Positions 4,835 to 34,975 of a stretch of DNA of 45,657 nt are shown here, one piece after another. The position numbers were made by a program, and so were the translations under genes. The DNA lies in NCBI GenBank assembly GCA_964630025.1, contig CAZVRG010000004.1, positions 1-45,657 of the forward strand. The letters are read 5' to 3'. Below the pieces are notes generated by a model that was given only the letters and a program-made list of their open reading frames with translations, searched no databases and was not told the origin of the DNA. The DNA comes from an uncultured Candidatus Saccharibacteria bacterium. GTDB taxonomy: Bacteria; Patescibacteriota; Andersenbacteria; UBA10190; CAIZMI01. Position 1 is the first letter of the stretch; every line of letters starts with the position of its first letter.

Positions 4835-4835
4835 T

Positions 4836-4938
4836 ACACCCCGTTAGAGACCTTTGAGGATTTTTCGCGCTATCGCGCAGGGAATAGAGATATGAAACCA
4901 GCGTCGGCTTTTTCAGAAGGTTTCTAACGGGGTATACT
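4836..4938. repeat. CCCCGTTAGA-type inverted repeat, copy 1, ending in a TATACT -10 box
   Basis: Left arm ACACCCCGTTAGAGACC and right arm GGTTTCTAACGGGGTATACT, with a 65-nt spacer containing a small CGCG-CTAT-CGCG hairpin. TATACT lies at 4933-4938, 17 nt before ATG 4956. Confidence 0.8.
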
Positions 4939-4955: not shown

Positions 4956-5546
4956 ATGACGCAATTCATAGGGAACAGGGAACAGAGAACAGGACACAGA
5001 GAACGCACGCAACGCGTCCCTGATCCCTGTTCCCTGATCCCTGTTCCTTTTCCCTCGTCGTCCGCTGGCATCACCTTCATTGAAGTGCTGGTCACGGTCT
5101 TCATCGTTGGGCTTATGTCCACCATTCTTCTCGTTGGCGCTGTCGGTGCGCGGAGAAACGCGACGGTCCGGACTGCCGCGCAGCAGGTAGCGGCATTTCT
5201 TCGTGAGACGGGAAACCTTGCGCTGAACGGCGTGAAAGCAGAAGATTGCGACCCAAGCGATTCGCAGTGCTCTGCCTATCGCGTCACGCTCGGTCCATCA
5301 GACACCAAGACCGCGTACATGCGTCAGGCGCTTGGCGGCGGAGAAGAAGTGCGTGTGCCGTTGCCCGTCGGTGCGGTGTTTCCCGTCACGAATCAAGAAG
5401 TGGAATTCGTCTACACCCCCCCAATCCTTTCTGCAACGGCGGCGGAGATTGCCATAACGCATACAACCGGCGCGCCGCGGTGGCTGGTCTGCGTCACCTC
5501 GCTGGGAAGTGTTACCGTACAAACAGGAGAACAGTGCGTGCAATGA
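4956..5546 (+). CDS. Minor pilin / pseudopilin (prepilin-type N-terminal domain)
   Basis: PSSSAG/ITFIEVLVTVFIVGLM with Glu+5. The ~38-aa leader is encoded by heptamer hairpin H1. No in-frame ATG, GTG or TTG lies between the hairpin and the cleavage motif. Confidence 0.75.
   Translation: MTQFIGNREQRTGHRERTQRVPDPCSLIPVPFPSSSAGITFIEVLVTVFIVGLMSTILLVGAVGARRNATVRTAAQQVAAFLRETGNLALNGVKAEDCDPSDSQCSAYRVTLGPSDTKTAYMRQALGGGEEVRVPLPVGAVFPVTNQEVEFVYTPPILSATAAEIAITHTTGAPRWLVCVTSLGSVTVQTGEQCVQ
4971..5047. repeat. Heptamer-arm hairpin H1 (inside the pseudopilin leader)
   Basis: Left arm GGGAACA GGGAACA GAGAACA GGACACA, core GAGAACGCACGCAACGCGTCCC, right arm TGATCCC TGTTCCC TGATCCC TGTTCC. The arms are near-perfectly complementary. 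Confidence 0.85.
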
Positions 5547-6238
5547 CACAAACACCAGTGAACAGGGAACAGGGAACAGGGAACAGGGAACGCACGCAGC
5601 GTGTCCCTCCAGTCTCTGGCCTAAGTAAGGCCTCGTCGTCCGGCTTTACCCTTCTCGGTGTTCTCATTGGCGCGTTGTTCATTGTTCTTGTCTCCACGGG
5701 ACTTGTGTTCACCGCACAGCGCACGGGACGTGTTGCCACCGCAACCAAAGAACGGCTCATTTCGACACTTCTTGCGCGGGAAGGTGTTGAACTTGTGCGC
5801 GCGATTCGCGATAACAACTGGCTCGCGACGCCGCGGTGTCCTGCAGTTGGCGCGTGCACGATTTTTTGGCGTGGGCAAACGAGTGGTCCGGGTGCACTCT
5901 GTAACGGAACGTTTCGCATCGATGCCGACGCGCTTGAACTTCTCCCTGCTTCCGCAGGTAGTGAAGAAACGCGGCTTGCACTCGATGGCACAGCATACCG
6001 TCATGGCAGCGGCACGCCAACGACATACCGGCGTTGGGTCACTATTGAATCGCCGGAGGAAGGATGCGGAACACCCTCGATCTTCTCCCTCGGATCCATT
6101 CCCGCTCCGCAACCGCCACAGCCGCTGACGGTGCGTGTGGTTGTGGCATGGGACGACAACCCCGATGCTTCCTGTGCGCCAGGCCGTCAGTGTGTTGAAT
6201 TACGAGAAGATCTTCACCCGTGGATGAATTTCCGATGA
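5543..6238 (+). CDS. Minor pilin / pseudopilin-like protein
   Basis: KASSSG/FTLLGVLIGALFIVLV, with no Glu+5. ATG 5543 overlaps the upstream TGA (ATGA), so it was preferred over the 5246 ORF extension, which overlaps the upstream gene out of frame. The leader is encoded by hairpin H2. Confidence 0.7.
   Translation: MTQTPVNREQGTGNRERTQRVPPVSGLSKASSSGFTLLGVLIGALFIVLVSTGLVFTAQRTGRVATATKERLISTLLAREGVELVRAIRDNNWLATPRCPAVGACTIFWRGQTSGPGALCNGTFRIDADALELLPASAGSEETRLALDGTAYRHGSGTPTTYRRWVTIESPEEGCGTPSIFSLGSIPAPQPPQPLTVRVVVAWDDNPDASCAPGRQCVELREDLHPWMNFR
5558..5620. repeat. Heptamer-arm element H2 (degenerate right arm)
   Basis: GTGAACA followed by four GGGAACA units (the last truncated), then core GCACGCAGCGTGTCCC. 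The right arm TCCAGTCTCTGG is only weakly complementary. Confidence 0.7.
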
Positions 6239-6861
6239 ACATACGGATACGAGGGATCAGAGAACAGGGGACAGTGAACAGAGAACGCACCCGACGCGTC
6301 CCTGTCCTCTGTGCTCTGCCCCCTGTCCCCGCGTCGTCCGGCTTTACCTTCATTGAAGCGATTGTTTCTGTTGCCATCTTTCTTGTGCTTATCGGTACGG
6401 TGGCGGGAATTTTTTCCACGTTCTCGCGCCAGCAGAAGCAGGGCATTACGCAGGCAACGCTTCTTGGGGAAGCGCAGGCCGCCATCGAAATCTTGGAACG
6501 GGAAGTACGGACAGGGTTCTCCAATACATTTTCCGGTGCTGGCGCCGCGTTCAGCTTTCGCAACCAAAATAACGTTCTCGTCACGTATGAACTCGCCGAT
6601 GGGCGCCTGATGCGGCGCGCTGTTCCTCCAGATCAAGCAACCCCGGTCACGCCGGCGACTGTGGAGATACGGTCGCTCGAATTTGTGACACGCACGCCAA
6701 CCATCGATCTTGGCGCAGCGCCCCAAGTGCCCATTCTCACCGGAGAACAAGGCCGCGTCACTGTCCGCATGCGCATGTGCCCCACAGGCATTGATACCGA
6801 TCAGCGATGCCTGCAGGTACAGACAACCTTAACGTCGCGCCAATATGCACCCGCACTCTAA
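6235..6861 (+). CDS. Minor pilin / pseudopilin
   Basis: PASSG/FTFIEAIVSVAIFLVLIG with Glu+5. ATG 6235 overlaps the upstream TGA; the alternative start is GTG 6220. The leader is encoded by hairpin H3. Confidence 0.7.
   Translation: MNIRIRGIREQGTVNRERTRRVPVLCALPPVPASSGFTFIEAIVSVAIFLVLIGTVAGIFSTFSRQQKQGITQATLLGEAQAAIEILEREVRTGFSNTFSGAGAAFSFRNQNNVLVTYELADGRLMRRAVPPDQATPVTPATVEIRSLEFVTRTPTIDLGAAPQVPILTGEQGRVTVRMRMCPTGIDTDQRCLQVQTTLTSRQYAPAL
6253..6330. repeat. Heptamer-arm hairpin H3
   Basis: Left arm GGGATCA GAGAACA GGGGACA GTGAACA GAGAAC, core GCACCCGACGCGTCC, right arm CTGTCCT CTGTGCT CTGCCCC CTGTCCCC. Confidence 0.8.
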
Positions 6862-7316: not shown

Positions 7317-9552
<2,236 letters not shown>

Positions 9553-17140: not shown

Positions 17141-17215
17141 CGCCGGGTGGAGAAGTGGTATCTCGCCAGGCCCATAACCTGGAGATCGCCGGTTCAAATC
17201 CGGCCCCGGCTACCA
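17141..17215 (+). tRNA. tRNA-Met (CAT), initiator type
   Basis: A manual cloverleaf fold gives acceptor CGCCGGG/CCCGGCT with a 1:72 mismatch, A11:U24, anticodon stem CCAGG/CCTGG, loop CCCATAA, T-arm GCCGG-TTCAAAT-CCGGC, and an encoded CCA. Confidence 0.85.
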
Positions 17216-17229
17216 GCATACCGAGAGAC

Positions 17230-17253
17230 CCGCAAAGCGCGGGCTTTTCGGTA
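17230..17253 (+). terminator. Short hairpin plus T-run after the initiator tRNA
   Basis: CCCGC-AAAGC-GCGGG followed by CTTTTCGG. Confidence 0.4.
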
Positions 17254-17357
17254 TTCCTGTTGGGCGGGATTTGAAAGATAGTTTCAAAAGCACATTGACC
17301 GGAAGATCGATTTGGTATAGAGTCCCGCAGGGAACTGTACCGTGAAAGGAGCATACT

Positions 17358-17654
17358 ATGTCGATGTCTCTTGATTTAGGAACGAAGCCGGCTGGACTAG
17401 AAGTTAAAACATACACGCATACGCTTGGATCGCTGGGCAAGTCCGTTCATCTTGGCGCGTATGAGATCTCGTTGGAAGACTTTCTCGTGGCTGCTGGATA
17501 CGTTCTTACCAATACGGACCTCGCCCCCAACGATCCCCGTCTCCAGTTTGTGAAGTATGTTCAGTCGATGCGGGTAGTCGAAGGCCACAATCGGGGCGGG
17601 GAACGGCTTGAACCCACGGTGCCGGTCCTTCTTCCGGAGCATATCGCCCGTTAA
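17358..17654 (+). CDS. Hypothetical small protein (98 aa)
   Basis: SD AAAGGAG lies 7 nt upstream of the ATG, and an intrinsic terminator follows directly. No motif was recognised. Confidence 0.6.
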   Translation: MSMSLDLGTKPAGLEVKTYTHTLGSLGKSVHLGAYEISLEDFLVAAGYVLTNTDLAPNDPRLQFVKYVQSMRVVEGHNRGGERLEPTVPVLLPEHIAR

Positions 17655-17673
17655 CGACGACGTGCATAGCTAG

Positions 17674-17712
17674 CCCCTTGCAGAATGCTTTCTGCGCGGG
17701 GTTTTTCTTTTT
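17674..17712 (+). terminator. Rho-independent terminator
   Basis: CCCCTTGCAGAA-TGCT-TTCTGCGCGGGG followed by TTTTTCTTTTT. Confidence 0.8.
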
Positions 17713-17823
17713 CAGGCAACGTGTTGAAGCAACAGGGGAAAATCGGTATTCTGTTGTTTTGTACCGGTGAATCCGCGTCGCTGCGCAGACAAAACAATAT
17801 GTATGCGCTACGCTTTGCTCCGC

Positions 17824-17898
17824 GCCGGTGTAGCTCAGTGGCAGAGCGATGGACTCATAAGCCATAGGTCGCAGGTTCGATCCCTGCCGCCGGCACCA
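17824..17898 (+). tRNA. tRNA with CAT anticodon, elongator type (Met, or Ile2 if lysidine-modified)
   Basis: Acceptor GCCGGTG/CGCCGGC, D-arm GCTC-AGTGGCA-GAGC, loop CTCATAA, T-arm GCAGG-TTCGATC-CCTGC, and an encoded CCA. Confidence 0.85.
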
Positions 17899-17958
17899 CT
17901 TCACAAACGTTTGTTCGCACCATATGCTGTGCAGGCGAACATTTTCATGTTGCGACTC

Positions 17959-18036
17959 GGCCCCGTGGTGTAGCCTGGTAAACATAGCACCTTGTCAAGG
18001 TGAAGATCGCCGGTTCAAATCCGGTCGGGGCCGCCA
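17959..18036 (+). tRNA. tRNA-Asp (GTC)
   Basis: Acceptor GGCCCCG/CGGGGCC, anticodon loop TTGTCAA, T-arm GCCGG-TTCAAAT-CCGGT, discriminator G, and an encoded CCA. Confidence 0.85.
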
Positions 18037-18433: not shown

Positions 18434-20047
18434 TTATTCGTGAACGCGGAAAATCATCGCGCGACTGATTTTCCCGTTCTGCTGCGGGAATGAAAAGGTC
18501 TGTGCCACACGAATATGGTCGAGAAAACGCGTGTCTGACAGCACAGGAAATACCTCACTCTCCGTGCCGCGGATAACGATGTATCGCGCGTCCCATTTTT
18601 GGAGCTCCTCCCACTGCTCGCTGCTGTCGGGCGTGTTGAGATGCGTCTCCGCAAAGACCGCGCGTCCCTCGTCTTTTTCGCCGAACAATGCGAGCACGAT
18701 GCTGGAGCGGTGCTCAAAGGCAATTGTTCCAGGGAGTGTTTTCGCTGCTTGGATTGCTTGGTAGTATGCGTAATCCGTTCCGAGATTTTTTTGATAGACT
18801 TCGCGAGCCTCTGCCGCGGTATGCCGCGTCCAGGACCCCGTCGCAAGAAGGATGAGCGCGAGTCCCAGTACTGCGGGGATTGTCTGTTTCAATACTGGCC
18901 ATCGGCTCAACATGCGACGAAACACTCTTCCGGATTCCTCAACACCAGCGGCGACAAGCAAAAAGAACAGCGGATAGAGGACAATGAGGAAGCGTTGTCG
19001 CACGCCCCACCACGCGATCGGCACCGCGAGCGTGAGGAAGAGCAGAACAAGCGGGAGAGAAACCGACACGCGTTTGCGCAGCAGAAAGATGATGCCTGCG
19101 AGCAGGAATAGACTGGGAAGTTCTTTCGGGTCTGTGACCAGCGAGCGCAGGCGCGCGGGCCATGTTGTGGCCGCGAGCGTCGCAACGTCATGCAGAACAC
19201 GGCGCGGTTCTTTCCATACGCGATCAAAACCCACGCTCTTCCAGAGTTCTCCGTAGTTGCGGAAAAACTCCTTGGCGCTCGTGACACCGAATGGCGTTGC
19301 TTCGGCGTCGGCAAAATATTCTACTGGCAAGAGCGGCCTCCCGACGGAGGTAAACAGGATCAGGAACGGCAGCCAACATGCGACCAACGCAAGGAGTGCC
19401 GGGAGCAGGAGGCGTCGGGGTTTCCAGAAGAACGCCGCGAGAAATGGGAAGAGCACGACGAGAAATGCACCCTCAAATCGTGTCAGTGATGTGAGCGCAA
19501 ACAGCGCTCCCGTGAGGACTGCTCCTCGGCGCGACCGCGTGTGAAGAAAGGCAAGGAGTGCGCCCAGCATCAGGGCAATAAACGTCGTGTCGGCATAGCC
19601 GCGTACGGATTGAAAGAGAAATGGCGCCACGGCCTGAAACGGCGCGAGGCCGATCACCAATGCAAACGATGAGATTCCCATCGTTCGCCCGAGCGCGTAT
19701 ACCAGGGCAACAGACACAAGGGAAGCGCCCAGAGCAATCACGAATGCTGCGTGTTCCCAGTCAACAAACGTATGCGCCAGGGCAATGAGCATCGGATACA
19801 TCGGTAACCGTTTCTCTGCAACCGGATAGGACCCTTTGAGGAGTTCTTGCGCAATGAGAATGAAGTTGTATGTATCGCCGCCGGGGAAGGCTTTCCACCA
19901 CTGGAGGAACGCGATGCGATGGACAACGGTAAGGACGAGAAGCGCGACGAGACCCCAGTGTGCACGGAAAAAATTGACAACTCGTGCGATCGGATCTGCG
20001 AAACGGGAGTGAAGAAAAGAATCGTTATGCACAGGAGAACGTATCAC
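18434..20047 (-). CDS. Polytopic membrane glycosyltransferase-like protein (ArnT/PMT_2, GT39/GT83-like)
   Basis: 537 aa with ~11 hydrophobic segments in the first ~400 aa and a soluble C-terminal domain. The N-terminal loop FPGGDTYNFILIAQ resembles this family. The call rests on architecture only. Confidence 0.55.
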   Translation of the reverse strand: MIRSPVHNDSFLHSRFADPIARVVNFFRAHWGLVALLVLTVVHRIAFLQWWKAFPGGDTYNFILIAQELLKGSYPVAEKRLPMYPMLIALAHTFVDWEHAAFVIALGASLVSVALVYALGRTMGISSFALVIGLAPFQAVAPFLFQSVRGYADTTFIALMLGALLAFLHTRSRRGAVLTGALFALTSLTRFEGAFLVVLFPFLAAFFWKPRRLLLPALLALVACWLPFLILFTSVGRPLLPVEYFADAEATPFGVTSAKEFFRNYGELWKSVGFDRVWKEPRRVLHDVATLAATTWPARLRSLVTDPKELPSLFLLAGIIFLLRKRVSVSLPLVLLFLTLAVPIAWWGVRQRFLIVLYPLFFLLVAAGVEESGRVFRRMLSRWPVLKQTIPAVLGLALILLATGSWTRHTAAEAREVYQKNLGTDYAYYQAIQAAKTLPGTIAFEHRSSIVLALFGEKDEGRAVFAETHLNTPDSSEQWEELQKWDARYIVIRGTESEVFPVLSDTRFLDHIRVAQTFSFPQQNGKISRAMIFRVHE

Positions 20048-20082
20048 CGTAACATGGCGCTGTGCGTGCGCGGTTCCGGGTA

Positions 20083-20140
20083 TCCCCGTTAGAAACGTTC
20101 CGCAGAAAGAACGTGCAGTCAGTTTCTACCGGGGTATACT
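20083..20140. repeat. CCCCGTTAGAAAC inverted repeat, copy 2, ending in TATACT
   Basis: TCCCCGTTAGAAAC ... GTTTCTACCGGGGTATACT with a 25-nt spacer. TATACT lies at 20135-20140, 9 nt before ATG 20150. Confidence 0.8.
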
Positions 20141-20149
20141 GGCAACGAT

Positions 20150-21067
20150 ATGGAGAAAAGCATCCGTCCTCGGGTTGCGATTGTTCACGGTCGTGACCGT
20201 CGTGAGAATATCCGTCAGGCACAAGCACTGCTCGGCGATGCGTATATCGATCGTCTGAAGAGTGCTCGCCAGATCTTCATTCACCCGAACCTTGTCTCTG
20301 ACACGAATCAGCTCGCGAGTACGCATGTGGAGGCTGTCCGTGCCATTCTCGACGTGATTTCGCTGCATCGCGGTGACACGGTGCGCATCGGAGATGCGAG
20401 CTATCACAGCACGAAAAAAGCGTTTGAACGCTTCGACTACGCATCACTGCAACGGAGCGGCAATGCGCAGCTTCTTGATCTGAACGATGACGAAACACTT
20501 GAGACGTGTACCTACGATCGCGAGCTGCGTCGTCAACCGGTGCCGGCAAGCAAAACAGTTCTTTCATCCGACTGTATCCTTCTCGTCGTTCCGCCAAAGA
20601 TGCACAGTTATTACACCGTGACGTTGAGTCTCAAAACCCACGTGGTCGGCAGTATGGTCGTCCCGAAAAGTCCGTTCGGGATTCATGCGCGCTGGCCGCA
20701 CGTGCACAGCGGCTACTCCGCGGCGCATCGCACGCTCGCCGATTGGTACCAAGAGCATCCCGCACACGCCGCGTTCATTGACGGCCGTGAGGCGATGGAA
20801 GGGAATGGACCAACGTCCGGAACGAAGGTGGAACTCAATTGGGCGGTTGCGTCTCTCGATCCCGTTGCAGCGGATGCGGTTGCGGCGTGGCTGATGGGCT
20901 TTGCACCGGACGACATCGGCTATCTCGTGTTTCTTCGCGAGGCGGGATGGACTATTGATCCGGATGCGATGGAGATTGTTGGCGAGCCGCACTGGCGGGA
21001 ATTGCGCCAGGAGCTTGCACGTCCCGAGACGTGGCCGGAGATTGCAGAATGGAACACACACGCATGA
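20150..21067 (+). CDS. DUF362 domain protein
   Basis: IFIHPNLVS near the N-terminus and IDGREAMEGNGPTSG...ASLDPVAADAVAAWLMGF match the DUF362 pattern as recalled. Confidence 0.7.
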   Translation: MEKSIRPRVAIVHGRDRRENIRQAQALLGDAYIDRLKSARQIFIHPNLVSDTNQLASTHVEAVRAILDVISLHRGDTVRIGDASYHSTKKAFERFDYASLQRSGNAQLLDLNDDETLETCTYDRELRRQPVPASKTVLSSDCILLVVPPKMHSYYTVTLSLKTHVVGSMVVPKSPFGIHARWPHVHSGYSAAHRTLADWYQEHPAHAAFIDGREAMEGNGPTSGTKVELNWAVASLDPVAADAVAAWLMGFAPDDIGYLVFLREAGWTIDPDAMEIVGEPHWRELRQELARPETWPEIAEWNTHA

Positions 21068-22260
21068 CGCTTCGTCTCTGGGAACGTTTTCAATTGTTCG
21101 TCCTACCGATGGTTGTTATCGCGATCTTTGCGTTTGCTGGCTCTGCAGCCTGGCGGCTGCAGACCGCACCCCGTACTGCGCCGCAGGATCTCGTTTCCCT
21201 TGAGGGCTGCTTCACGCATACCGAGTTTACCGAACGCATTCGTTGTTATCGTCCCATGCTGGAACACCACCTTGATATGCACGGGCCGCGCGCCGTGCTC
21301 GCCGCACTGGATCGTCTGCAAGAGCAGCGCACGCAGTTTCGCGCCGAATGCCATACCATGGCCCATATCTTGGGCCGCTATTGGATCGCCAGTGGGAAAT
21401 TGCTTGCCGACGGGTTTCGTGAGGGAACGAATATCTGTCATTCAGGATTTTTCCACGGCATGGCGGAACGTGTGTTTCAAGGAGAGGACGCGTCTCTTGA
21501 TGAACCGGCGCATCTTTCTCCGGAAGAGCTTCGTGCGCGCATCGCGACCGTCTGCACAGATGAAGCATTGCGCACCCCGAGCCGCAACATGCGGTTTCAG
21601 TGTCTGCACGGGCTCGGGCACGCAGCCGTCTTTTCTCTGTCGTACGATCTCCTGCTCGCACTGGAGATGTGCGACGTGTTACCCACAGAGTGGGATCAAA
21701 GTTCCTGCGCGGGCGGGGCATTTATGGAAAACATCACGGGCATGGAGCGCGACCGGCGCATGCTGCGCGCGGGAGATCCGCACTATCCCTGCTCTATTGT
21801 TCCAAGCCGCCATCGCAAATCCTGCTACGGCATGCAAACAAGCTGGATGCTGGAATCAGGGATGAACTGGGATGCGATCATCGATGAATGCCGAACAGCG
21901 GGAGATGTTCGCCTCGCGTGTTCCCAAAGTTTCGGTCGTGACGTCAGTCCGCGCGTGCGCGAAAAAGGTCCCACGGAGTTCGTGTCTCTCTGCACACAAC
22001 TGCAGCCGGATGAGCGTTCTCCCTGTATTCGCGGAGCAGTATATGCGCTCGCCGATCACACGTGGGACGGCCGCTACGCCTTTCCGTTCTGTGCGGCGTT
22101 TCCAGATGGTGCTCTCGGTCACGCGTGCTTCACGGAGGCGCAGCGGCATCTGTTGTACTCTCTCGAACAGACACGCGCTGCGACGGAACAGGGCTGTGCC
22201 GCTCTTGGCACAGGACGCGAAGCATGCCTGCAGTCCCTGCAAACTCTTGCGTCCTCGTAA
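21064..22260 (+). CDS. Membrane-anchored Cys/His-rich repeat protein, function unknown
   Basis: One N-terminal TM, then about eight helix-like units each carrying a Cys followed by small or aromatic residues (ECHTMAHILGRY, ICHSGFFHGM, QCLHGLGHAAV, SCAGGAFMEN, SCYGMQTSW, ACSQSFGRD, PCIRGAVYAL, HACFTEAQRH). ATG 21064 overlaps the upstream TGA. Confidence 0.6.
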   Translation: MTLRLWERFQLFVLPMVVIAIFAFAGSAAWRLQTAPRTAPQDLVSLEGCFTHTEFTERIRCYRPMLEHHLDMHGPRAVLAALDRLQEQRTQFRAECHTMAHILGRYWIASGKLLADGFREGTNICHSGFFHGMAERVFQGEDASLDEPAHLSPEELRARIATVCTDEALRTPSRNMRFQCLHGLGHAAVFSLSYDLLLALEMCDVLPTEWDQSSCAGGAFMENITGMERDRRMLRAGDPHYPCSIVPSRHRKSCYGMQTSWMLESGMNWDAIIDECRTAGDVRLACSQSFGRDVSPRVREKGPTEFVSLCTQLQPDERSPCIRGAVYALADHTWDGRYAFPFCAAFPDGALGHACFTEAQRHLLYSLEQTRAATEQGCAALGTGREACLQSLQTLASS

Positions 22261-22262
22261 GC

Positions 22263-22811
22263 ATGCCATATCCTACTTCTCGCCAGCTGCGATTCCCCCT
22301 CGATCAGTACGCGGCGAACGGGCGCGCATTTTTGGAGGAAGCCATACTTGGCGGGAAGCCATGGGGGCGACATCTTGGTGAAGATGCGTTGGTGGATGCC
22401 GGAACGCCTGTGCTCGCGATTGGCGACGGCGAGGTTATCTACGCGGCGCTCCACGCAAGTTGGTGGCGTCGGCGTGGAAACTGGGGACACGTGGTGATTC
22501 TTGGACATACCCATGCGCAGGACGGTCAGCCGTTTTATTCAGTGTACGGCCATCTGGGCGAGTATCGCGTAACGCCGGGAATTTCTGTGCGAGGTGGGGA
22601 AACGCTCGGGACCGTAGGCAATGGCCGCACGCGCGCCAACGGCTGGTGGCCGGAGCCGCATCTGCACTTCGCCATGTATCGCGGCCCGTGGGAGGGGAAA
22701 ATCCTTCCCGGCTACCTCCGAGAGAACGACGAGCGCACAAAGCGCGAGTATTGGGTGAACCCGTCGGAGTTTGTGCGGGGGTATCCGAATCAGGGGAAGG
22801 TTGCGTCGTAG
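22263..22811 (+). CDS. M23 family metallopeptidase
   Basis: HLGEDALVDAGTPVLAIGDGEV, GHVVILGH, YSVYGHLGE, and the HxH motif PHLHFAMY. The start was set just after the upstream stop. Confidence 0.8.
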   Translation: MPYPTSRQLRFPLDQYAANGRAFLEEAILGGKPWGRHLGEDALVDAGTPVLAIGDGEVIYAALHASWWRRRGNWGHVVILGHTHAQDGQPFYSVYGHLGEYRVTPGISVRGGETLGTVGNGRTRANGWWPEPHLHFAMYRGPWEGKILPGYLRENDERTKREYWVNPSEFVRGYPNQGKVAS

Positions 22812-22834
22812 AAGCATTCTCGCTAGGGTAGAGG

Positions 22835-22861
22835 CGCTAACCGGTGGTTAGTGTTCTTTTC
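22835..22861 (+). terminator. Rho-independent terminator
   Basis: CGCTAACC-GGT-GGTTAGTG followed by TTCTTTTC. Confidence 0.7.
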
Positions 22862-22881
22862 TATCACACGGAGAACCCCCT

Positions 22882-23880
22882 ATGACGCCGCAAGAGATTG
22901 GGCATGCTTTCCATGCAGAAAGTGGATCCTATGCCGTAGGAATCCCGACTATTGATGTTCCTGTCTTCCAAACGGAAAAGACAGGAACTCGCTACCTCAA
23001 AGCGCCGGGTGTCACCATCCTGGCGTATACCGTCAATAACCGAGAATCTCTCAGGGGCTTTCTTGAGGGGTTTGACCCGGATCTCGAGTTCCGTGAGTAC
23101 CTGAACGATGCGTACCGATGGACAGTCGGTGACATGGTGGAGACAGCGGAGGGGAAAACGTTTCAACCCGATCCTTCCTGTGAAACCCAGGTCATTCCAG
23201 ACTCCGCCCAGCTCATCAAGATCGCGGGGCAGCTCTGCTACATGAGTTTCGGGCCCGATCGCACACGGAACGCCGAGACGCGGAAGTACATGCACAACAT
23301 CATCGCCTCCGGCCACGGCTCCGTGCTCGAGCACCCCAACGTCACGCTGCTGCTCTACGGTATCTCTCGCAGTCTCACACACGAGCTCGTTCGTCACCGC
23401 GCGGGCATGGCGTTCTCGCAACTTAGTCAGCGGTACGTGGACGGGTCACGTCTGCGCTTCGTGGAGCGACCGGAGTACCAGACCGATCCAGAACTCCATG
23501 CGAAGTTCGAGGAAGAGATCGATCGCCAAGCGGCACTGTACGAAGACACTGCGCAGACGCTTCTCCAGCGGCAGGAATCCGGTACGGGGATCCTCAGCGG
23601 AGAAAAGAAACGTGATCGCCGCAAGAAGGTGAACCAAGCGGCTCGCTCCGTCCTCGGGAATCACGCGGAGGCACCGATCGTGGTGACCGGAAATCTGCGC
23701 TCTTGGCGGCATGTCTTCAACATGCGCACATCAGAGCATGCTGAAGTCGAAATTCGTCGCGCAATGTATCGGGCGTTTCTCTGCCTCGCGATGCTCGATC
23801 CAATCACCTTCGGCGATTTCGAGATCGTGGAGTTCGCGGATGGTACAAAAGGAGTGAAAACGCCCTACCCAAAAGTGTAA
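22882..23880 (+). CDS. thyX: FAD-dependent thymidylate synthase ThyX (long form)
   Basis: ThyX signature RHRAGMAFSQLSQRY (RHRxxSxxxxSxR), preceded by SGHGSVLEH. Confidence 0.9.
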   Translation: MTPQEIGHAFHAESGSYAVGIPTIDVPVFQTEKTGTRYLKAPGVTILAYTVNNRESLRGFLEGFDPDLEFREYLNDAYRWTVGDMVETAEGKTFQPDPSCETQVIPDSAQLIKIAGQLCYMSFGPDRTRNAETRKYMHNIIASGHGSVLEHPNVTLLLYGISRSLTHELVRHRAGMAFSQLSQRYVDGSRLRFVERPEYQTDPELHAKFEEEIDRQAALYEDTAQTLLQRQESGTGILSGEKKRDRRKKVNQAARSVLGNHAEAPIVVTGNLRSWRHVFNMRTSEHAEVEIRRAMYRAFLCLAMLDPITFGDFEIVEFADGTKGVKTPYPKV

Positions 23881-23887
23881 TGTCCGA

Positions 23888-23924
23888 CAGAGGTTTGACA
23901 GACCAAACCTCTGTTTTCTCTTTC
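23888..23924 (+). terminator. Rho-independent terminator
   Basis: CAGAGGTTTG-ACAGAC-CAAACCTCTG followed by TTTTCTCTTTC. Confidence 0.85.
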
Positions 23925-23974
23925 TGCCTCTGTACCTTCGTTGTCTCTCCACGGTACGCTAGAGAAATCGTCGC

Positions 23975-24370
23975 ATGACACTCCGCTCTTCGCTTGCCGT
24001 GTTTGGGGTTGGCACCACGTTTGCGTGGGCGGCATTTCTTCTTATTTTCTTTCTGGTGCCGCCGGAGACCGCGGGCACGCTCGGCGAAGTCTTTTTCTTT
24101 TCCGCGTTATTCTTGGCGTTTGTCGGCACGCTGACCATGCTTGGCGTTCTGGGACGCTGGCGGATGAGCCGGCTGCTTCCTGCACTGCACATCGGTCCGG
24201 CCTTCCGGCAAGGCATGTTTCTTTCCATTGCCGCGGTGGGCATGCTGCTGCTTCAGCGCTTCCGCGTGCTGCGCTGGTGGAATATTGCGCTGTTGGTCGT
24301 GATGCTGGTCGTGCTGGATTTTCTCCTTGCGCGTCGCGAGCCAAAAGGCGATGATGGTTCGTCCACCTGA
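23975..24370 (+). CDS. Small integral membrane protein (4 predicted TM), hypothetical
   Basis: 131 aa, strongly hydrophobic. A TACGCT -10-like box lies 14 nt upstream of the ATG. Confidence 0.6.
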   Translation: MTLRSSLAVFGVGTTFAWAAFLLIFFLVPPETAGTLGEVFFFSALFLAFVGTLTMLGVLGRWRMSRLLPALHIGPAFRQGMFLSIAAVGMLLLQRFRVLRWWNIALLVVMLVVLDFLLARREPKGDDGSST

Positions 24371-24376
24371 TACCCT

Positions 24377-25510
24377 ATGCCACGCATTCTTCAGATCGCA
24401 GACCCAGAAGAAGCCAAGGCAGTAGAGCAATTGGCGGTGCGCAGCGACTTCGAGGCACAACGCATTCGTCGTCTGTTAGACATGCCGGATCTTTCGCGAA
24501 CGCCGGGAAGCCCGCTCAGTGAAATCGTGAGTCGCGCCCTCGCAGTCAAAAGCGTAGAAGATTTTGATGTTATCAACATTCCTGAAATTGTTCCCACCCG
24601 CGTCCTTTTTGATCTTTTCAATATGCCGCCCGGTCATCCAGCTCGCAGCGCATCAGACACCTATTATATCAATGACGATTACGTGCTCCGCACTCATGAC
24701 ACGGTGTTCTGGTACTACTATTTGAACCACCCGATGATTAAAAAAAGGATAGAGAATAAGGAGACATTGGGCGCTGTCTGCTACGGAAAGGTGTACCGGA
24801 AAGATGAGATCGACAGAATGCACATGAATGTGTTCCATCAGTTCGGCGGATTGTACATCGCACCGGATGAGAAAAAAACCATCTCTCCAGACGACCTGAA
24901 GAATACCCTTTCTGAAATCGCACGCAGTATTTTTGGTGATGTACGCTTCCGTTTCTATGAGCATACCTTTCCGTATACCGATCCCAGCTACGAAATGGAG
25001 GCAGAAATCAACGGTCGATGGATAGAGATGCTCGGTTCCGGCATGGCCAGGAAAAGCGTGCTGGCGAATTTCGGCTTAACCGGCTATCACGGTTGGGCGT
25101 TCGGATTTGGTCTGGAACGTCTGGCAATCGCTTCCATGTCGCTTCCAGATATTCGGTTACTGTGGAGCGAGGACGAACGAGTCAAAAAGCAGCTGAAGCT
25201 TGGGAACGCATACCGGGAAGTGAGCAAGTTCCCTCCGGTCACCCGTGACATTTCGTTCATTGTCGGCAAGGATTTTGTGCCGAACGATTACTTCGACCTT
25301 ATTCGCGATATCGGCGGCGACCTCGTGGAAGAGGTGGCACTCCTCGACACATACGAGGACGCGGAAAAGTTCGGTGCGGACAAGGTGAGTTACACGTTCC
25401 GGGTCGTCTATCGGTCATTCGAGCGAACGCTCACCAATGAAGAAGTAGATGCCATTCACAAAAGACTCGAGGAGCAAACCGTGGCACGATTTTCCGCCGC
25501 GATTCGGTAA
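24377..25510 (+). CDS. pheS: Single-chain phenylalanyl-tRNA synthetase: PheS-type catalytic core fused to a C-terminal FDX-ACB anticodon-binding domain (mitochondrial-type architecture)
   Basis: Class II core GHPARSASDTYYI, GKVYRKDEIDRMHMNVFHQ, FPYTDPSYEMEA, GWAFGFGLERLA and PDIRLLWSEDERV. The C-terminus is KFPPVTRDISFIV...DYFDLIRDIGGDLVEEVALLDTY...YTFRVVYRSFERTLTNEEVDAIH. Confidence 0.9.
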   Translation: MPRILQIADPEEAKAVEQLAVRSDFEAQRIRRLLDMPDLSRTPGSPLSEIVSRALAVKSVEDFDVINIPEIVPTRVLFDLFNMPPGHPARSASDTYYINDDYVLRTHDTVFWYYYLNHPMIKKRIENKETLGAVCYGKVYRKDEIDRMHMNVFHQFGGLYIAPDEKKTISPDDLKNTLSEIARSIFGDVRFRFYEHTFPYTDPSYEMEAEINGRWIEMLGSGMARKSVLANFGLTGYHGWAFGFGLERLAIASMSLPDIRLLWSEDERVKKQLKLGNAYREVSKFPPVTRDISFIVGKDFVPNDYFDLIRDIGGDLVEEVALLDTYEDAEKFGADKVSYTFRVVYRSFERTLTNEEVDAIHKRLEEQTVARFSAAIR

Positions 25511-25545
25511 CAAAAGAAATCCGCACCTCGAAACGAGTGTGCGGA
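25508..25545 (-). terminator. Terminator for the minus-strand gene, in a convergent gap
   Basis: On the minus strand, ATCCGCAC-ACTCGTTTCGAG-GTGCGGAT is followed by TTCTTTTGTT. Confidence 0.7.
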
Positions 25546-25556
25546 TGAGTGCAGGA

Positions 25557-26132
25557 CTACACGCGCAGTTTCAATCGTGGTCGTGGCGGTGGGTTTCCTT
25601 TCCGTATCTCGGCGGCGATAGCGCTGAGGCGCTCGTCACCTCCGACGAAGCATCCCCAACCCGGGACGAACAGTTGCTGCTTGCTGCGGCGATTCACCAT
25701 GCTTGTCGCCCGAAGCGCGCTTCGCGTGTAGAGCGCGAGAGAGTGCTGCGTTGTGATCGCATCGTGGTTGCGCGCATTGCAGCAACAAAGAATCAGGAGA
25801 CGCACTTTGCCGTCAAGCGTGTTGACCCAGGTTTGTAGTCGCGTATCCAGCGGAGCATCAGCGCCAAACCGCCACTCCCCGTTTTCTCGGCCACCGTGTG
25901 CTAGCAGTATGGTAATTCCGCGGAGGAGAGGAGCACGTGCTGACCACGCGTGGTACACGCTGTAGACGCCGCGATTCTTCATGATTATTGCTAGCACGTC
26001 GTTCGTAAACAGTTCGTCAGGTCGCCAACCCACTGCACGTTCTTGGGGGAAGTAGGGGGCTGTGAGTGGATGCGTTTCGTCAAATCCATGACCGAGGAAA
26101 AGGCGGTCCGGTCCAAAGCATAACTCGAGCAT
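25557..26132 (-). CDS. Hypothetical protein with a possible caspase/CHAT-like His-Cys dyad
   Basis: SD AAAGGAG lies 7 nt upstream. ITILLAHGG and, ~38 aa later, VRLLILCCCNA each follow a hydrophobic strand. Confidence 0.6.
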   Translation of the reverse strand: MLELCFGPDRLFLGHGFDETHPLTAPYFPQERAVGWRPDELFTNDVLAIIMKNRGVYSVYHAWSARAPLLRGITILLAHGGRENGEWRFGADAPLDTRLQTWVNTLDGKVRLLILCCCNARNHDAITTQHSLALYTRSALRATSMVNRRSKQQLFVPGWGCFVGGDERLSAIAAEIRKGNPPPRPRLKLRV

Positions 26133-26253
26133 CGCGAGCTCCTTTGCAGAATAGGATCACATGTGTAACGAACAGCTGTATGGGCAGTGTAGCTGCTCTT
26201 GAGGGCACACGCCACTATAGGTACGTACTGGAAACAAAGGCGAAAATAGGCTC

Positions 26254-28508
<2,255 letters not shown>

Positions 28509-28516
28509 CGCGGCGT

Positions 28517-28585
28517 GTCATCCTGAGGACAACGTCCGAAGGATCTTGGTACGCTTCGAGATGCTTCGTGTGCGTTCAGTATGAC
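28517..28585. repeat. GTCATCCTGAGG-type palindrome after gyrB
   Basis: GTCATCCTGAGGACAACGTCCGAAGGATCT pairs with GAGATGCTTCGTGTGCGTTCAGTATGAC. Confidence 0.8.
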
Positions 28586-28720
28586 AACATGATTGAAAAA
28601 TGAGGCGAGCGATCCTGTCGGTACAGGAGCAGGTTGACGGCGTTTGTAGCTATCCGGTATACTCCCGGCTGTGGTGCCTCTCGGCCCCGCTTTTTAAATC
28701 ACGAACCTTTCTTTTCATTC

Positions 28721-28933
28721 ATGGTTTTGTCCGCACTGAAGGCCTTTCGCCTTCCGTCGCTGCTCGGCTTCACCCGTGAGGTCCGGCAGGAACTTAAAGG
28801 TGTGCAATGGCCGAGTCGCGAGACGACGGTGCGTTTTACCGTGCTCGTCATCGGCGTATCGGCAGTTGTCGGCATTGCAACGAGCCTTCTTGATGCTCTC
28901 CTCACGCTTGGGGTTGAACAGATTCTTCCGTAG
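28721..28933 (+). CDS. secE: Preprotein translocase subunit SecE
   Basis: 70 aa with FTREVRQELKGVQWPSRETTVRFTVLVIGVSAVVG, a single TM. It sits upstream of nusG as is usual. Confidence 0.8.
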   Translation: MVLSALKAFRLPSLLGFTREVRQELKGVQWPSRETTVRFTVLVIGVSAVVGIATSLLDALLTLGVEQILP

Positions 28934-29002
28934 CTTCTAGCTTGTAGCTTGTAGGCGGTCATAACGCACGTTCCTATAAACTAGAAGCTATAACCTAGAA
29001 CC
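28931..29002. repeat. Heptamer-arm hairpin H4 (fills the secE-nusG gap)
   Basis: Left arm TAGCTTC TAGCTTG TAGCTTG TAGG, core CGGTCATAACGCACGTT, right arm CCTATAA ACTAGAA GCTATAA CCTAGAA. It starts on the secE stop codon and ends 8 nt before the nusG ATG. Confidence 0.8.
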
Positions 29003-29009
29003 TCACCAA

Positions 29010-29555
29010 ATGGCCAAACAGATTCCCGCCACCGACAAAGCCTGGTATGTGTTGCACACGTATTCCGGGTACGAAGATAACGTTGCCCGCAACCTCCGGC
29101 AGCGTATTGAGTCCATGGGCATGGAAGACAAAATCTTCCAGGTGCTTGTGCCGCGGGAGAAAAAAATCAAGATTAAGGACGGCAAGCGGCGCGTGGTGGA
29201 AGAGCGACTCTTTCCAGGATATGTGCTGGTGGAGATGGTCGTCACGGACGATTCCTGGTATGTCGTCCGCAACACGCCAAACGTAACCGGATTTATCGGT
29301 TCGGGAACGATTCCCACACCGGTGTCGGAAGACGAAGTAAAGCGCCTCTTCGTGCGCATCGGCGAGGAAGAGCCGACGTACAAGATCGATATGAAGTCCG
29401 GGGACACAGTGAAGATTACCGATGGTCCGTTCAAAGACTTCGACGGCAGAATCGCGGAAGTAAACGAGGCAAAAGGCAAGATCAAAGTGCTGGTGAACAT
29501 GTTTGGTCGGGAGACGCCGATTGAGCTCGATTCTCTCCAGGCGAAAAAAGTCTAG
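29010..29555 (+). CDS. nusG: Transcription termination/antitermination factor NusG
   Basis: NGN domain WYVLHTYSGYEDNV and KOW motif GDTVKITDGPFKDFDGRIAEV. Confidence 0.95.
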   Translation: MAKQIPATDKAWYVLHTYSGYEDNVARNLRQRIESMGMEDKIFQVLVPREKKIKIKDGKRRVVEERLFPGYVLVEMVVTDDSWYVVRNTPNVTGFIGSGTIPTPVSEDEVKRLFVRIGEEEPTYKIDMKSGDTVKITDGPFKDFDGRIAEVNEAKGKIKVLVNMFGRETPIELDSLQAKKV

Positions 29556-29558
29556 GCT

Positions 29559-29735
29559 GCGACCGCAAAAACAAGCGCACTGTTGATGCACTGACAGGCC
29601 GGCAGAGCCGGACCTTTTCGTGCATCAACCCTTCAGACTCGCGCTTCGCTCCATTCCTCGCTCAACGGATCACCAATCCGTCTCGCTCGGTACTCGCTCC
29701 AGCGCTTCGCATTGCATCTTGTTTTTGCGGTCTCG
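29559..29735 (+). repeat. ~175-nt structured repeat, copy E2 (a partial extra copy extends to ~29810)
   Basis: Outer stem GCGACCGCAAAAACAAG/CTTGTTTTTGCGGTCTCGC. Stem 2 is GTTGATGCAC/GTGCATCAAC, capped by CCGGCAGAGCCGG. Stem 3 is ACGGAT/ATCCGT. It has the same conserved blocks as E1 and starts 4 nt after the nusG stop. Confidence 0.85.
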
Positions 29736-29877
29736 CGCGTGCTCCATTCGCTTTTAGCCCTCAGCTCTCCATCTACCTCATCACGATTCTGCAGTCTCGC
29801 GCGTGCGTTGTTTACTTTCAGTTATCAGCTTGGACTAGGATTTTGGCTTATGTAAGCAATTTTACTCCTATCGGCTA

Positions 29878-29906
29878 TTGACAAGTATCTCGAGAAGTGC
29901 TATGGT
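29878..29906 (+). promoter_or_regulatory. Canonical sigma70-type promoter
   Basis: TTGACA, a 17-nt spacer, then TATGGT. It lies ~50 nt upstream of ATG 29959, which has SD GAAGGAG. Confidence 0.65.
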
Positions 29907-29958
29907 GATCCCTTCTTTTTAAAGAAGACTGTTCCTTTTCACTACGAAGGAGTTTGTT

Positions 29959-30423: not shown

Positions 30424-30433
30424 TTCATTCCGA

Positions 30434-30471: not shown

Positions 30472-30557
30472 GACCTTTTGCTTTTGTGAATATGCCGAGT
30501 GAACATGATCGTTGGTATCTCCCGTGGCGCACCGAAAACATGCACGGGCGTGAAATC

Positions 30558-31111: not shown

Positions 31112-31112
31112 T

Positions 31113-34924: not shown

Positions 34925-34975
34925 TACACCCCGTGAGAAGTGCCAATATGCCGTGCACTTCTAACGGGGTACACT
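34925..34975. repeat. CCCCGT-type inverted repeat, copy 4, ending in TACACT
   Basis: TACACCCCGTGAGAAGTGC-CAATATGCC-GTGCACTTCTAACGGGGTACACT. The ATG lies 6 nt after the -10-like TACACT. Confidence 0.8.

What the first reader, a model, noticed from the sequence alone, without database searches (positions are those of the whole stretch)
4836..4938. CCCCGTTAGAAAC/GTTTCTAACGGGG inverted repeat fused to the -10 box of several genes, with a highly variable spacer
Four copies (4836-4938, 20083-20140, 26254-26324, 34925-34975) have arms of 14-17 nt. The spacers are 65, 25, 37 and 9 nt. In every case the right arm runs directly into GGGGTATACT or GGGGTACACT, 6-17 nt before the start codon of a + strand gene (pseudopilin, DUF362, gyrB, hypothetical).

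The same arm sequence forms a bona fide terminator at 30434-30471 (CCCCCGTAGAAAC-TTCG-GTTTCTCGGGGG-T run). It also resembles the outer stem of repeat E1 (ACCCCAGAAAC/GTTTTTGGGGT). The variable spacing argues against a dimeric repressor operator. The pattern looks more like a portable terminator-plus-promoter cassette, or the terminal inverted repeats of a small mobile element that delivers a -10 box.
Basis: seen in the sequence. Interest (0 to 1): 0.65.

Follow-up and report, generated by a model that had tools for sequence, protein, structure and literature searches.

The report
Tiny transposon sitting in promoter boxes
The repeated hairpin is a miniature, non-coding mobile DNA element that has inserted into the -10 promoter box of four genes in a groundwater Patescibacteria genome, copying four bases as it went in so that an intact box still sits next to each gene.

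Summary
Four inverted repeats (CCCCGTTAGAAAC...GTTTCTAACGGGG) each abut TAYACT, 6-17 nt before the ATG of a + strand gene.

Comparison with two syntenic relatives decides what they are. At all four sites at least one relative has an empty site carrying the same TAYACT at the same distance from the ATG. The window has TAYA[CCCC...GGGG]TAYACT. So the hairpin is an insertion with a 4-bp target-site duplication. The -10 box was the target and was not delivered by the element.

The same 11-nt terminal repeat occurs in many Patescibacteria MAGs. It also occurs in MAGs labelled Omnitrophota, Ratteibacteria and Thermodesulfobacteriota, and in some IMG/VR contigs. In 150 elements found without regard to their flanks, flank identity peaks at exactly 4 bp (84/150). 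The target word is T-T/A-N-A|C. Elements avoid coding DNA and cluster at gene starts. All 14 TTGA duplications lie in TTGAC/TTGAT words, and 12 pass a -35-plus-TAnnnT scan.

This is an apparently undescribed MITE-like family whose duplication rebuilds the promoter hexamer on the gene side. No transposase was found and no transcript data exist. The hairpin at 30434 is an ordinary conserved terminator and is not shown to be a member.

The parts
4835..4936 (.). Element copy 1, between pilD and a pseudopilin gene. Left duplication copy TACA (4835-4838, one substitution), left repeat 4839-4851 CCCCGTTAGAGAC, interior 4852-4919, right repeat 4920-4932 GTTTCTAACGGGG, right duplication copy TATA (4933-4936).
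   Evidence: Empty site in the relative L194: tttTGATATACTacggaaaacagacagcATG. L195 is also empty.
4933..4938 (+). TATACT, inferred -10 hexamer of the pseudopilin gene (ATG 4956). It pre-dates the insertion.
   Evidence: Same hexamer at the same distance from the ATG in the empty site of L194. Promoter function is inferred from position and consensus only.
20081..20138 (.). Element copy 2, between a divergent 537-aa gene and DUF362. Left duplication remnant TAT (20081-20083, one base lost), left repeat 20084-20096, right repeat 20122-20134 (GTTTCTACCGGGG), right duplication copy TATA (20135-20138). This is the oldest copy.
   Evidence: Also present but more decayed in L067, with the same 1-nt loss and the same A>C change. 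Empty in L068: tggTATACTgcgccgtGTG.
20135..20140 (+). TATACT, inferred -10 hexamer of the DUF362 gene (ATG 20150).
26252..26322 (.). Element copy 3, upstream of gyrB. Left duplication copy TCTA (26252-26255, one substitution), left repeat 26256-26268, interior 26269-26305, right repeat 26306-26318, right duplication copy TATA (26319-26322).
   Evidence: Empty in L067 (aggcTATACTgcccataatATG) and in L068 (gcgcTATACTgcatacaatATG).
26296..26324 (+). TTCACA-17 nt-TATACT. A -35-like word from the element's interior lies at consensus spacing from the resident -10 of gyrB (ATG 26334).
   Evidence: Consensus scan, 10 of 12 matches. Only this copy shows it. Function not tested.
34925..34973 (.). Element copy 4, between divergent miaA and a 189-aa hypothetical gene. 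Left duplication copy TACA (34925-34928), left repeat 34929-34941 CCCCGTGAGAAGT, right repeat 34957-34969 ACTTCTAACGGGG, right duplication copy TACA (34970-34973).
   Evidence: Empty in L067 (aatGGTACACTgcacctATG) and in L068 (gtGGTACACTggcggcATG).
34970..34975 (+). TACACT, inferred -10 hexamer of the hypothetical gene (ATG 34982, leaderless-type spacing of 6 nt).

Best explanation
The four hairpins are copies of a miniature, non-coding transposable element (MITE-like). Each has 13-14-bp terminal inverted repeats CCCCGTTAGAA(A/G)(T/C/G), a heterogeneous interior and a 4-bp target-site duplication.

The element integrates at the word T-(T/A)-N-A|C. The staggered cut is filled in, so the four bases TNNA appear on both sides. 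In this Patescibacteria lineage the commonest non-coding match to that word is the -10 hexamer TAYACT of leaderless or short-leader genes, so insertions that persist are found there.

Because the duplication covers the first four bases of the hexamer, the gene-side copy reads GGGG-TAYACT. That is a complete -10 box at an unchanged distance from the start codon. Everything upstream of the box is pushed away by 50-100 bp. In AT-richer relatives the same family sits in the same way on the -35 hexamer (TTGA|CA), just upstream of ribosome-binding sites, and on start codons.

Shown here: insertion polymorphism, the 4-bp duplication, the target word, and the position relative to promoter words and gene starts.

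Inferred: cut-and-paste by a DDE-type transposase supplied in trans (none found), that TAYACT is the working -10 box, and that promoters stay functional after insertion.
For: (1) Empty orthologous sites exist for all four copies. Three copies are absent from both the 92%-gyrB relative and the 80% relative, so parsimony gives gain in the window's lineage.

(2) Direct covariation of flanks. In the genome scan, 41 of 67 matches have a left arm. Their flank pairs are TATA/TATA 20 times and TACA/TACA 5 times. A TATA left flank with a TACA right flank never occurs, and the reverse occurs once.

(3) Flank-free census. In 150 elements, the last and first n flank bases are identical in 84 cases for n=4, in 10 or fewer for n=2, 3 or 5, and in none for n=6-8.

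(4) Target profile: T 93%, T 86%, N, A 82%, then C 58% or T 31%.

(5) Reconstructed empty sites: 68 of 84 are intergenic or at a 5' edge, against 70% coding for control sites with the same 4-mer. 40% lie within 20 nt of an outward-facing gene start, against 6%.

(6) 12 of 14 TTGA sites are -35-like hexamers with TAnnnT 16-18 nt downstream, against 12% of non-coding TTGA sites. For TTGAC it is 11 of 12 against 26% (p=4e-6).

(7) The inverted repeat ends at position 13-14. Watson-Crick pairing is 86-87% at positions 12-13 and random from position 15, as expected for transposase-binding ends rather than a long RNA stem.

(8) The same family is inserted in frame in a coding region: L195 6854-6981, 128 bp plus TTCA gives 132 bp, inside a prepilin leader.

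(9) TAYACT lies 6-9 nt before the ATG at unoccupied first-in-operon genes of the relatives, and 6-9 nt before the ATG in 16 of the 41 CPR elements.

(10) There is no Rfam match.
Against: - No autonomous copy or transposase was found in the window, next to solo arms, between distant arm pairs or in multi-copy loci.
- Interiors are unusually diverse for a MITE. 121 of 214 have no relative in the sample, and the four window copies share nothing but their ends.
- At orthologous sites in different species the ends stay conserved while interiors diverge or are flipped. This could mean host-level selection on the ends rather than purely selfish DNA.
- Occupied TTGAC sites are promoter hexamers more often than non-coding TTGAC sites in general, so sequence preference plus a crude coding filter may not be the whole story.
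- No transcript data could be obtained, so every promoter statement rests on consensus and position.
- Host labels outside Patescibacteria come from MAGs and could be binning errors.
Confidence: 0.8

Rival explanations
1. Exapted element. The insertions began as mobile DNA, but the terminal hairpin next to the promoter hexamer is now kept by the host. It could serve as a cis-regulatory module, for example a binding site for a transposase-derived or other protein, a cruciform that tunes supercoiling-sensitive promoters such as gyrB, or an insulator against read-through. This is not exclusive of the main explanation.
For: - Ends (repeat plus about 10 nt) are far better conserved than interiors at orthologous sites of three species (set A: repeats differ at 0-1 of 26 positions, interiors are 71-83% identical).
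- In the shared DUF362 copy, the arms differ at 4 of 26 positions against about 45% divergence in the loop.
- Occupied sites are enriched for true promoter hexamers beyond the target word.
- The gyrB copy supplies TTCACA at -35 spacing.
Against: - The L067 copy is visibly decaying (gaCCGTTAGAAAC...GTTTCTACCAGGG).
- End conservation is equally explained by repeated re-occupation of hot-spot sites by fresh copies. Tandem elements share a duplication (L111, L146) and orientations are flipped at orthologous sites.
- Family members also sit in coding DNA and behind genes.
- No binding protein is known.
Confidence: 0.2
2. Portable terminator-plus-promoter cassette. The hairpin ends transcription of the upstream gene, and the element brings its own -10 box for the downstream gene.
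For: - Stable hairpins, -26 to -43 kcal/mol, z-scores -3.7 to -6.4.
- Some family-like hairpins elsewhere are followed by T runs (L072 in an IMG/VR contig).
- Copy 1 lies 1 nt after the pilD stop codon.
Against: - The -10 box is present in the empty sites of the relatives, so it is not delivered.
- No T run follows any of the four hairpins. The consensus scan of 20000-36000, which covers copies 2-4, calls none of them terminator-like.
- Copies 2 and 4 lie between divergent genes.
Confidence: 0.05
3. REP/REPIN-like or IS200/IS605-derived palindromic element, moved as single-stranded DNA by a Y1 (RAYT/TnpA) transposase.
For: Short palindromes with variable loops, dispersed in intergenic DNA. The minimal forms are bare hairpins of 29 bp.
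Against: - Y1 transposition makes no target duplication, whereas a sharp 4-bp duplication with many different sequences is seen.
- Both ends are equivalent inverted repeats rather than distinct left and right subterminal hairpins.
- No RAYT or TnpA gene was seen in the loci searched.
Confidence: 0.05
4. Paired operator half-sites for a transcription factor that loops DNA at these promoters.
For: The centre-to-centre arm distances in the window (31, 41, 53, 84 bp) happen to lie near multiples of 10.5 bp (computed).
Against: - Presence/absence with target duplication.
- Spacers of every length from 7 to about 130 nt in the census.
- Copies in coding DNA.
- Occurrence across phyla.
Confidence: 0.02

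Closest known systems
Correia repeat-enclosed elements (Neisseria MITEs)
   Same: Small non-coding elements with terminal inverted repeats, mostly immediately upstream of genes. They are intimately tied to promoter words, form hairpins in RNA and are reported to invert in place (review PMC10969869).
   Different: - From my own knowledge, Correia elements have 26-bp repeats of unrelated sequence and a TA duplication.
- They carry their own promoters.
- Here the duplication is 4 bp and the repeat core is CCCCGTTAGAA.
- Here the promoter hexamer is the pre-existing target, rebuilt by the duplication.
- The hosts are Patescibacteria and other uncultivated groups.
Rickettsia palindromic elements (RPE)
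   Same: Palindromic mobile elements that can sit in frame inside genes. The L195 copy adds 44 codons to a prepilin leader.
   Different: In-frame coding insertion is the exception here (9 of 84 sites are coding). There is no sequence relation.
SPRITE and other terminator-like MITEs of Streptococcus pneumoniae
   Same: Small dispersed hairpin elements that cluster in regulatory regions and insert next to or into one another.
   Different: The four window copies lack a T tract. The family is defined by its ends and a 4-bp duplication, not by terminator features.
piggyBac / IS1380-type transposons (a lead from memory, not tested)
   Same: 4-bp duplication of a T..A word (TTAA for piggyBac) and ends beginning CC(C) followed by TAGAA-like bases (piggyBac CCCTAGAAAG, this family CCCCGTTAGAAA).
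   Different: No such transposase was found near any element. The target here is TTNA/TAYA plus C, not TTAA. The resemblance of the ends is short and could be chance.
REP / REPIN elements with RAYT transposases
   Same: Very short palindromes in intergenic DNA, in many copies, with variable loops.
   Different: REPINs make no target duplication. These elements do.

Membership tests
MITE (non-autonomous class II element with terminal inverted repeats) | Terminal inverted repeats of at least about 10 bp | tested here: met
   11-nt invariant core plus 2-3 covarying positions. Watson-Crick pairing is 86-87% at positions 12-13 and random beyond 15.
MITE (non-autonomous class II element with terminal inverted repeats) | Target-site duplication of fixed length flanking the element | tested here: met
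   84 of 150 have a perfect 4-bp direct repeat. Other offsets give 10 or fewer. The window copies have TACA/TATA, TAT-/TATA, TCTA/TATA and TACA/TACA.
MITE (non-autonomous class II element with terminal inverted repeats) | Presence/absence at orthologous sites, with the empty site holding one copy of the duplicated word | tested here: met
   All four window sites.
MITE (non-autonomous class II element with terminal inverted repeats) | Small, no coding capacity, many dispersed copies | tested here: met
MITE (non-autonomous class II element with terminal inverted repeats) | A cognate autonomous element or transposase with the same ends | tested here: inconclusive
   None in the window, none between arm pairs 250-12000 bp apart, none beside solo arms and none in multi-copy loci. 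Whole genomes could not be scanned.
Correia element | 26-bp Correia repeat sequence and TA duplication | tested here: not met
   Different repeat sequence and a 4-bp duplication. The Correia features are recalled from established literature.
REP/REPIN-RAYT | No target duplication. Insertion next to a fixed tetranucleotide. | tested here: not met
   The duplicated word varies (TTTA, TTCA, TTGA, TATG, TATA, TACA and others) and is the same on both sides of each element.
Intrinsic (Rho-independent) terminator | GC-rich stem with a short loop, followed by a T run | tested here: not met
   The four hairpins are followed by TAYACT, with no T run. Copies 2-4 fall inside the scanned region 20000-36000 and none is called terminator-like. 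Only the unrelated 30434 hairpin qualifies.
Transcription-factor operator pair | Fixed or helically phased spacing, conserved at orthologous promoters | tested here: not met
   Spacers of every length from 7 to about 130 nt. Absent from orthologous promoters of the relatives.
Described structured RNA (Rfam) | Match to a curated covariance model | tested here: not met
   Nothing at the gathering threshold in the window. Nothing at E<=1 on the elements of 13 loci.
piggyBac / IS1380 superfamily | DDE transposase of that family bounded by the same ends | not testable with these tools
   No candidate protein to test. The resemblance of ends and of the 4-bp T..A duplication is a lead from memory only.

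The most novel reading that the evidence does not exclude
The family is aimed at sigma-70 promoter hexamers as such, for example at DNA held or distorted by RNA polymerase at the upstream edge of the -35 or -10 element, rather than at a 5-nt word. Its conserved ends would then be retained by the hosts as promoter-adjacent control modules across Patescibacteria. That would give these tiny genomes a mobile, reusable layer of promoter regulation.
Probability: 0.15. Interest if true: 0.8.

Novelty: new member of a known kind. Interest (0 to 1): 0.5.

Why it matters
Patescibacteria have very small genomes and are thought to carry little mobile DNA. Here a MITE-like family has made at least three new insertions within 45 kb since two close lineages split, so a transposition system is or recently was active in them.

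Because the duplication rebuilds the hexamer, the elements mark the upstream edge of -10 or -35 boxes. This gives a sequence-only marker for promoters and for leaderless genes in organisms that cannot be cultured.

The identical 11-nt ends in several phyla and in viral contigs point to a shared, still unknown transposase moving between groundwater organisms.

The case also gives natural filled/empty promoter pairs (gyrB, DUF362, a pseudopilin). These can be used to test how much upstream DNA such promoters need.

Tried and rejected
- **Helical phasing of two operator half-sites.** The arm distances 31, 41, 53 and 84 bp looked like multiples of 10.5. I dropped this once empty sites and the full range of spacers were seen.
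- **DNA-uptake-sequence pairs.** The arm resembles the Neisseria GCCGTCTGAA and the window encodes type IV pilus genes. I rejected this because uptake sequences do not come with target duplications and empty sites.
- **Integron attC.** The order of the GTT/AAC core words relative to the loop is the reverse of attC.
- **Structured RNA.** No Rfam family matches, and pairing stops at position 14.
- **Exact-sequence literature search.** It returned only unrelated primer sequences. 'MITE' plus 'candidate phyla radiation' and 'leaderless' plus 'candidate phyla radiation' gave nothing relevant.
- **Transcript evidence.** No RNA runs hold the window or a Hainich-groundwater locus.
- **Population polymorphism.** Contigs of three metagenome runs showed no empty-allele joints.
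- **Search for an autonomous copy.** I checked arm pairs 250-12000 bp apart with matching flanks, ORFs beside solo arms, and Pfam on window ORFs and on multi-copy loci. No transposase turned up.
- **The 443-aa ORF at 37291-38622 (-).** I considered it as a candidate. It is an antisense artefact over two NUDIX genes.
- **The 30434 terminator as a family member.** Not supported.

Full report
**1. Observation**

The four inverted repeats are at the stated coordinates.
- The arm 15-mer with up to 3 mismatches occurs 8 times against 0.49 expected, and no shuffle reaches 8.
- GGGTAYACT occurs 4 times against 0.11 expected.
- Each right arm runs directly into TATACT or TACACT. An ATG follows after 17, 9, 9 and 6 nt.
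- The downstream genes are a pseudopilin (N-terminal methylation motif), a DUF362 protein, gyrB and a hypothetical protein.
- The gyrB start at 26334 is supported by conservation of the N-terminus MA(K/E/Q)RRSAG in two relatives.
- As RNA the regions fold at -26 to -43 kcal/mol, with z-scores of -3.7 to -6.4.
- Independent Logan assemblies from two groundwater samples cover copies 3 and 4 with no differences.

**2. Host**

gyrB is closest to Patescibacteria proteins. It is 92% identical to a Logan contig from SRR34348058 and 80% identical to Parcubacteria group bacterium Gr01-1014_38. Both relatives are syntenic with the window (L067, L068, L194, L195).

**3. The decisive comparison**

| Site | Window | Relatives |
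|---|---|---|
| Hypothetical gene | GGTACA[CCCCGTGAGAAG...CTTCTAACGGGG]TACACTacccccATG | L067 aatGGTACACTgcacctATG; L068 gtGGTACACTggcggcATG |
| gyrB | ggctcTA[CCCC...GGGG]TATACTtcctacaatATG | L067 aggcTATACTgcccataatATG; L068 gcgcTATACTgcatacaatATG |
| Pseudopilin | TGATACA[CCCC...GGGG]TATACT | L194 TGATATACTacggaaaacagacagcATG |
| DUF362 | filled | L068 empty (tggTATACTgcgccgtGTG); L067 filled |

At the DUF362 site, L067 shares the window's 1-nt loss in the left flank and its A>C change in the right arm, and carries further decay. That copy is therefore one older insertion. The other three are gains in the window's lineage.

In every case the hexamer TAYACT already existed at that distance from the ATG. 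The element sits between two copies of its first four bases. The apparent fusion of the right arm to a -10 box is a target-site duplication.

**4. The family elsewhere**

A scan of 185,579 species genomes with TTCTAACGGGGTAYACT gave 67 matches. Of these, 41 have the left arm CCCCGTTAGAA 7-130 nt upstream.
- Most are in Patescibacteria MAGs (Kazan, Saccharibacteria, Wolfe-, Nomura-, Specht-, Kaiser-, Jorgensenbacteria and others).
- Some are in MAGs labelled Omnitrophota, Ratteibacteria, Thermodesulfobacteriota/Deltaproteobacteria and 'Gammaproteobacteria'.
- The flanks covary in direct orientation. TATA/TATA occurs 20 times and TACA/TACA 5 times. A TATA left flank with a TACA right flank never occurs, and the reverse occurs once.
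- In 16 of the 41, an ATG opening an ORF of at least 50 codons follows the hexamer after 6-9 nt. This is the spacing expected for leaderless transcripts.

That scan fixed the right flank, so I repeated the census without any flank, using CCCCGTTAGAA-N85-115-TTCTAACGGGG on metagenome contigs.
- Among 150 elements in those loci, the last n bases of the left flank equal the first n bases of the right flank in 84 cases for n=4. For n=2, 3 and 5 the counts are 10, 7 and 4, and for n=6-8 they are zero. This is a clean 4-bp duplication.
- The duplicated words are TTTA/TAAA (30), TTCA/TGAA (19), TTGA/TCAA (14), TATG/CATA (8), CTTG/CAAG (4) and a few others.
- Oriented, the target profile is T 93%, T 86%, N, A 82%, followed by C 58% or T 31%. 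TATAC and TACAC fit the same T-N-N-A-C word.
- The inverted repeat is conserved to position 13-14 only.
- Sizes have a main mode of about 110-135 bp and a tail down to bare 29-bp hairpins.
- Interiors fall into subfamilies of 23, 15, 6 and 6 members, but 121 of 214 are unique in the sample. The window's four share only their ends.
- A few short copies lie on IMG/VR contigs.
- No Rfam family matches.

**5. Where the elements land**

I removed each element plus one duplication copy to rebuild the empty sites.
- 40 of 84 are intergenic, 28 lie within 60 nt of the leftmost start of a called ORF, 7 are at 3' edges and 9 are coding. Of control sites with the same 4-mer, 70% are coding.
- 40% lie within 20 nt of an outward-facing gene start, against 6% of controls.
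- All 14 TTGA duplications lie in TTGAC or TTGAT words. 12 pass a scan for a -35-like hexamer followed by TAnnnT after 16-18 nt. Only 12% of non-coding TTGA sites pass.
- For TTGAC, 11 of 12 pass against 26% of non-coding controls, p=4e-6.
- TAAA sites often directly precede GGAGG. TATG and TGAA sites overlap start codons, and GGGG+TGAA re-creates a GTG.

In each case the copy of the word on the gene side is complete.

In the window and its relatives the usual hexamer 6-9 nt before first-in-operon ATGs is TAYACT. The window has 17 TAYACT words, 29 TATA and 193 TACA/TGTA. All four insertions are in TAYACT words that precede a start codon.

My reading is that the same target word falls on the -10 box in this GC-richer, leaderless-type lineage and on the -35 box in AT-richer lineages. 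In the AT-richer lineages the -10 boxes (TATAAT, TAAAAT) lack the C.

**6. Mechanism and its limits**

The fixed-length duplication, equivalent inverted ends and empty sites point to cut-and-paste integration with a 4-nt stagger by a transposase supplied in trans. That step is inferred.

I found no transposase in the window, beside solo arms, between distant arm pairs or in multi-copy loci.

Insertion into a -10 box leaves the hexamer and its distance to the ATG intact but removes everything upstream. At gyrB the ancestral TGGAAA word, 17 nt upstream of the old hexamer, now faces a mutated TCTACC. The element's interior offers TTCACA at 17 nt from TATACT. The other three copies show no such replacement.

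Whether expression changes is unknown, because no RNA data exist for this organism or for a related locus.

**7. Unresolved observations**

- At orthologous sites of different species the ends (repeat plus about 10 nt) are much better conserved than the interiors (set A).
- In two other sets, the same subfamily sits in opposite orientation in different species. The flipped alignment scores 3.2-3.3 sd above shuffles, while the direct alignment is at background.
- Tandem elements that share one duplication occur (L111, L146). The rebuilt target can therefore be hit again.
- Repeated re-occupation, in-place inversion (reported for Correia elements; PMC10969869) and host selection on the ends all remain possible.

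**8. Claims not supported**

The hairpin at 30434-30471 is a normal terminator.
- It has a T run.
- It lies 11 nt after a stop codon.
- It has no flanking duplication.
- It is conserved in L067 as CCCCCGCAGAAACTTCGGTTTCGCGGGGGTTTTC.
- L068 has a different terminator at that place.

Its likeness to the arms (about 10 of 13) may be chance. Repeat E1 (7317-7492) has different ends, CGAGACCCCAGAAAC.

**9. Comparison and novelty**

The element meets the structural definition of a MITE except that its autonomous partner is unknown.
- It works most like the Correia elements of Neisseria in its position just upstream of genes, its tie to promoter words, its hairpins and its possible inversion. It differs in end sequence, duplication length and the fact that the promoter word is the target rather than cargo.
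- In-frame coding copies, such as L195 6854-6981 in a prepilin leader, recall Rickettsia palindromic elements.
- The CC(C)...TAGAA ends and the 4-bp T..A duplication recall piggyBac/IS1380. This is from memory and untested.
- I found no description of this family. A recent survey of prokaryotic MITEs does not mention Patescibacteria in its main text (PMC11602168).

I rate it a new member of a known kind. The open question is whether promoter hexamers are hit because of a 5-nt word plus selection, or because promoters are targeted as such.

Noticed in passing
window 4971-5047, 5558-5591, 6253-6330, 34070-34155: A second palindromic insertion family, built of 7-nt units (GGGAACA/GAGAACA), gives 15 hits against 1.04 expected. 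It lies in frame in the leader peptides of pseudopilin genes and inside miaA (ORF of 415 aa against 325 aa in the relatives). The pseudopilin copy is absent from the relative L194.
   Followed up: partly
window 26361-26403: A 43-nt palindrome (GGGCACCCCTACGGATTCGC gaa GCGAATCCTAAGGGGACCCC) lies inside the N-terminal extension of gyrB. It adds about 16 residues relative to L067 ([31 protein letters not shown] against MAERRSAGRGTRPSG).
   Followed up: partly
window 7317-7492: Repeat E1 is a roughly 176-bp element with ends CGAGACCCCAGAAAC...GTTTTTGGGGTCTCG, between the last pseudopilin gene and ligA. The ligA upstream region of L195 is only 49 nt and lacks it. It is probably another MITE family.
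   Followed up: partly
L195 6854-6981: A member of the same family, with variant arms CCCCGTTACAAGCC, is 128 bp long and has a TTCA duplication. The total of 132 bp is inserted in frame in the prepilin leader of the orthologous pseudopilin (211 aa against 168 aa).
   Followed up: yes
window 30434-30471; L067 14026-14062: An intrinsic terminator before the L11 operon is conserved between the window and L067. L068 has a different terminator at the same place.
   Followed up: yes
L004/L014 and L025/L041/L046 (orthologous loci in different species): The same element subfamily occupies the same promoter site in opposite orientation in different species. Tandem elements sharing one duplication occur in L111 and L146.
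   Followed up: partly
L133, L159, L164, L090; viral L071 and L073: The non-matching flank pair TTCA[element]CAAG recurs. This suggests either longer true ends in one subfamily or exchange between copies.
   Followed up: no
window 17141-18036: A tRNA cluster: tRNA-Met (CAT) twice and tRNA-Asp.
   Followed up: no
window 37291-38622 (-): The 443-aa ORF with no Pfam hit has an odd composition. It lies antisense to two + strand ORFs that correspond to the two NUDIX genes of L067. It is probably not a gene.
   Followed up: partly
L067, L068, L194, L195 gene starts: In this lineage many first-in-operon genes have TAnnnT, mostly TAYACT and often preceded by G or TGG, 6-9 nt before the ATG and with no Shine-Dalgarno sequence. 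Other genes have GGAGG. This suggests a mixed leaderless and leadered transcriptome.
   Followed up: partly
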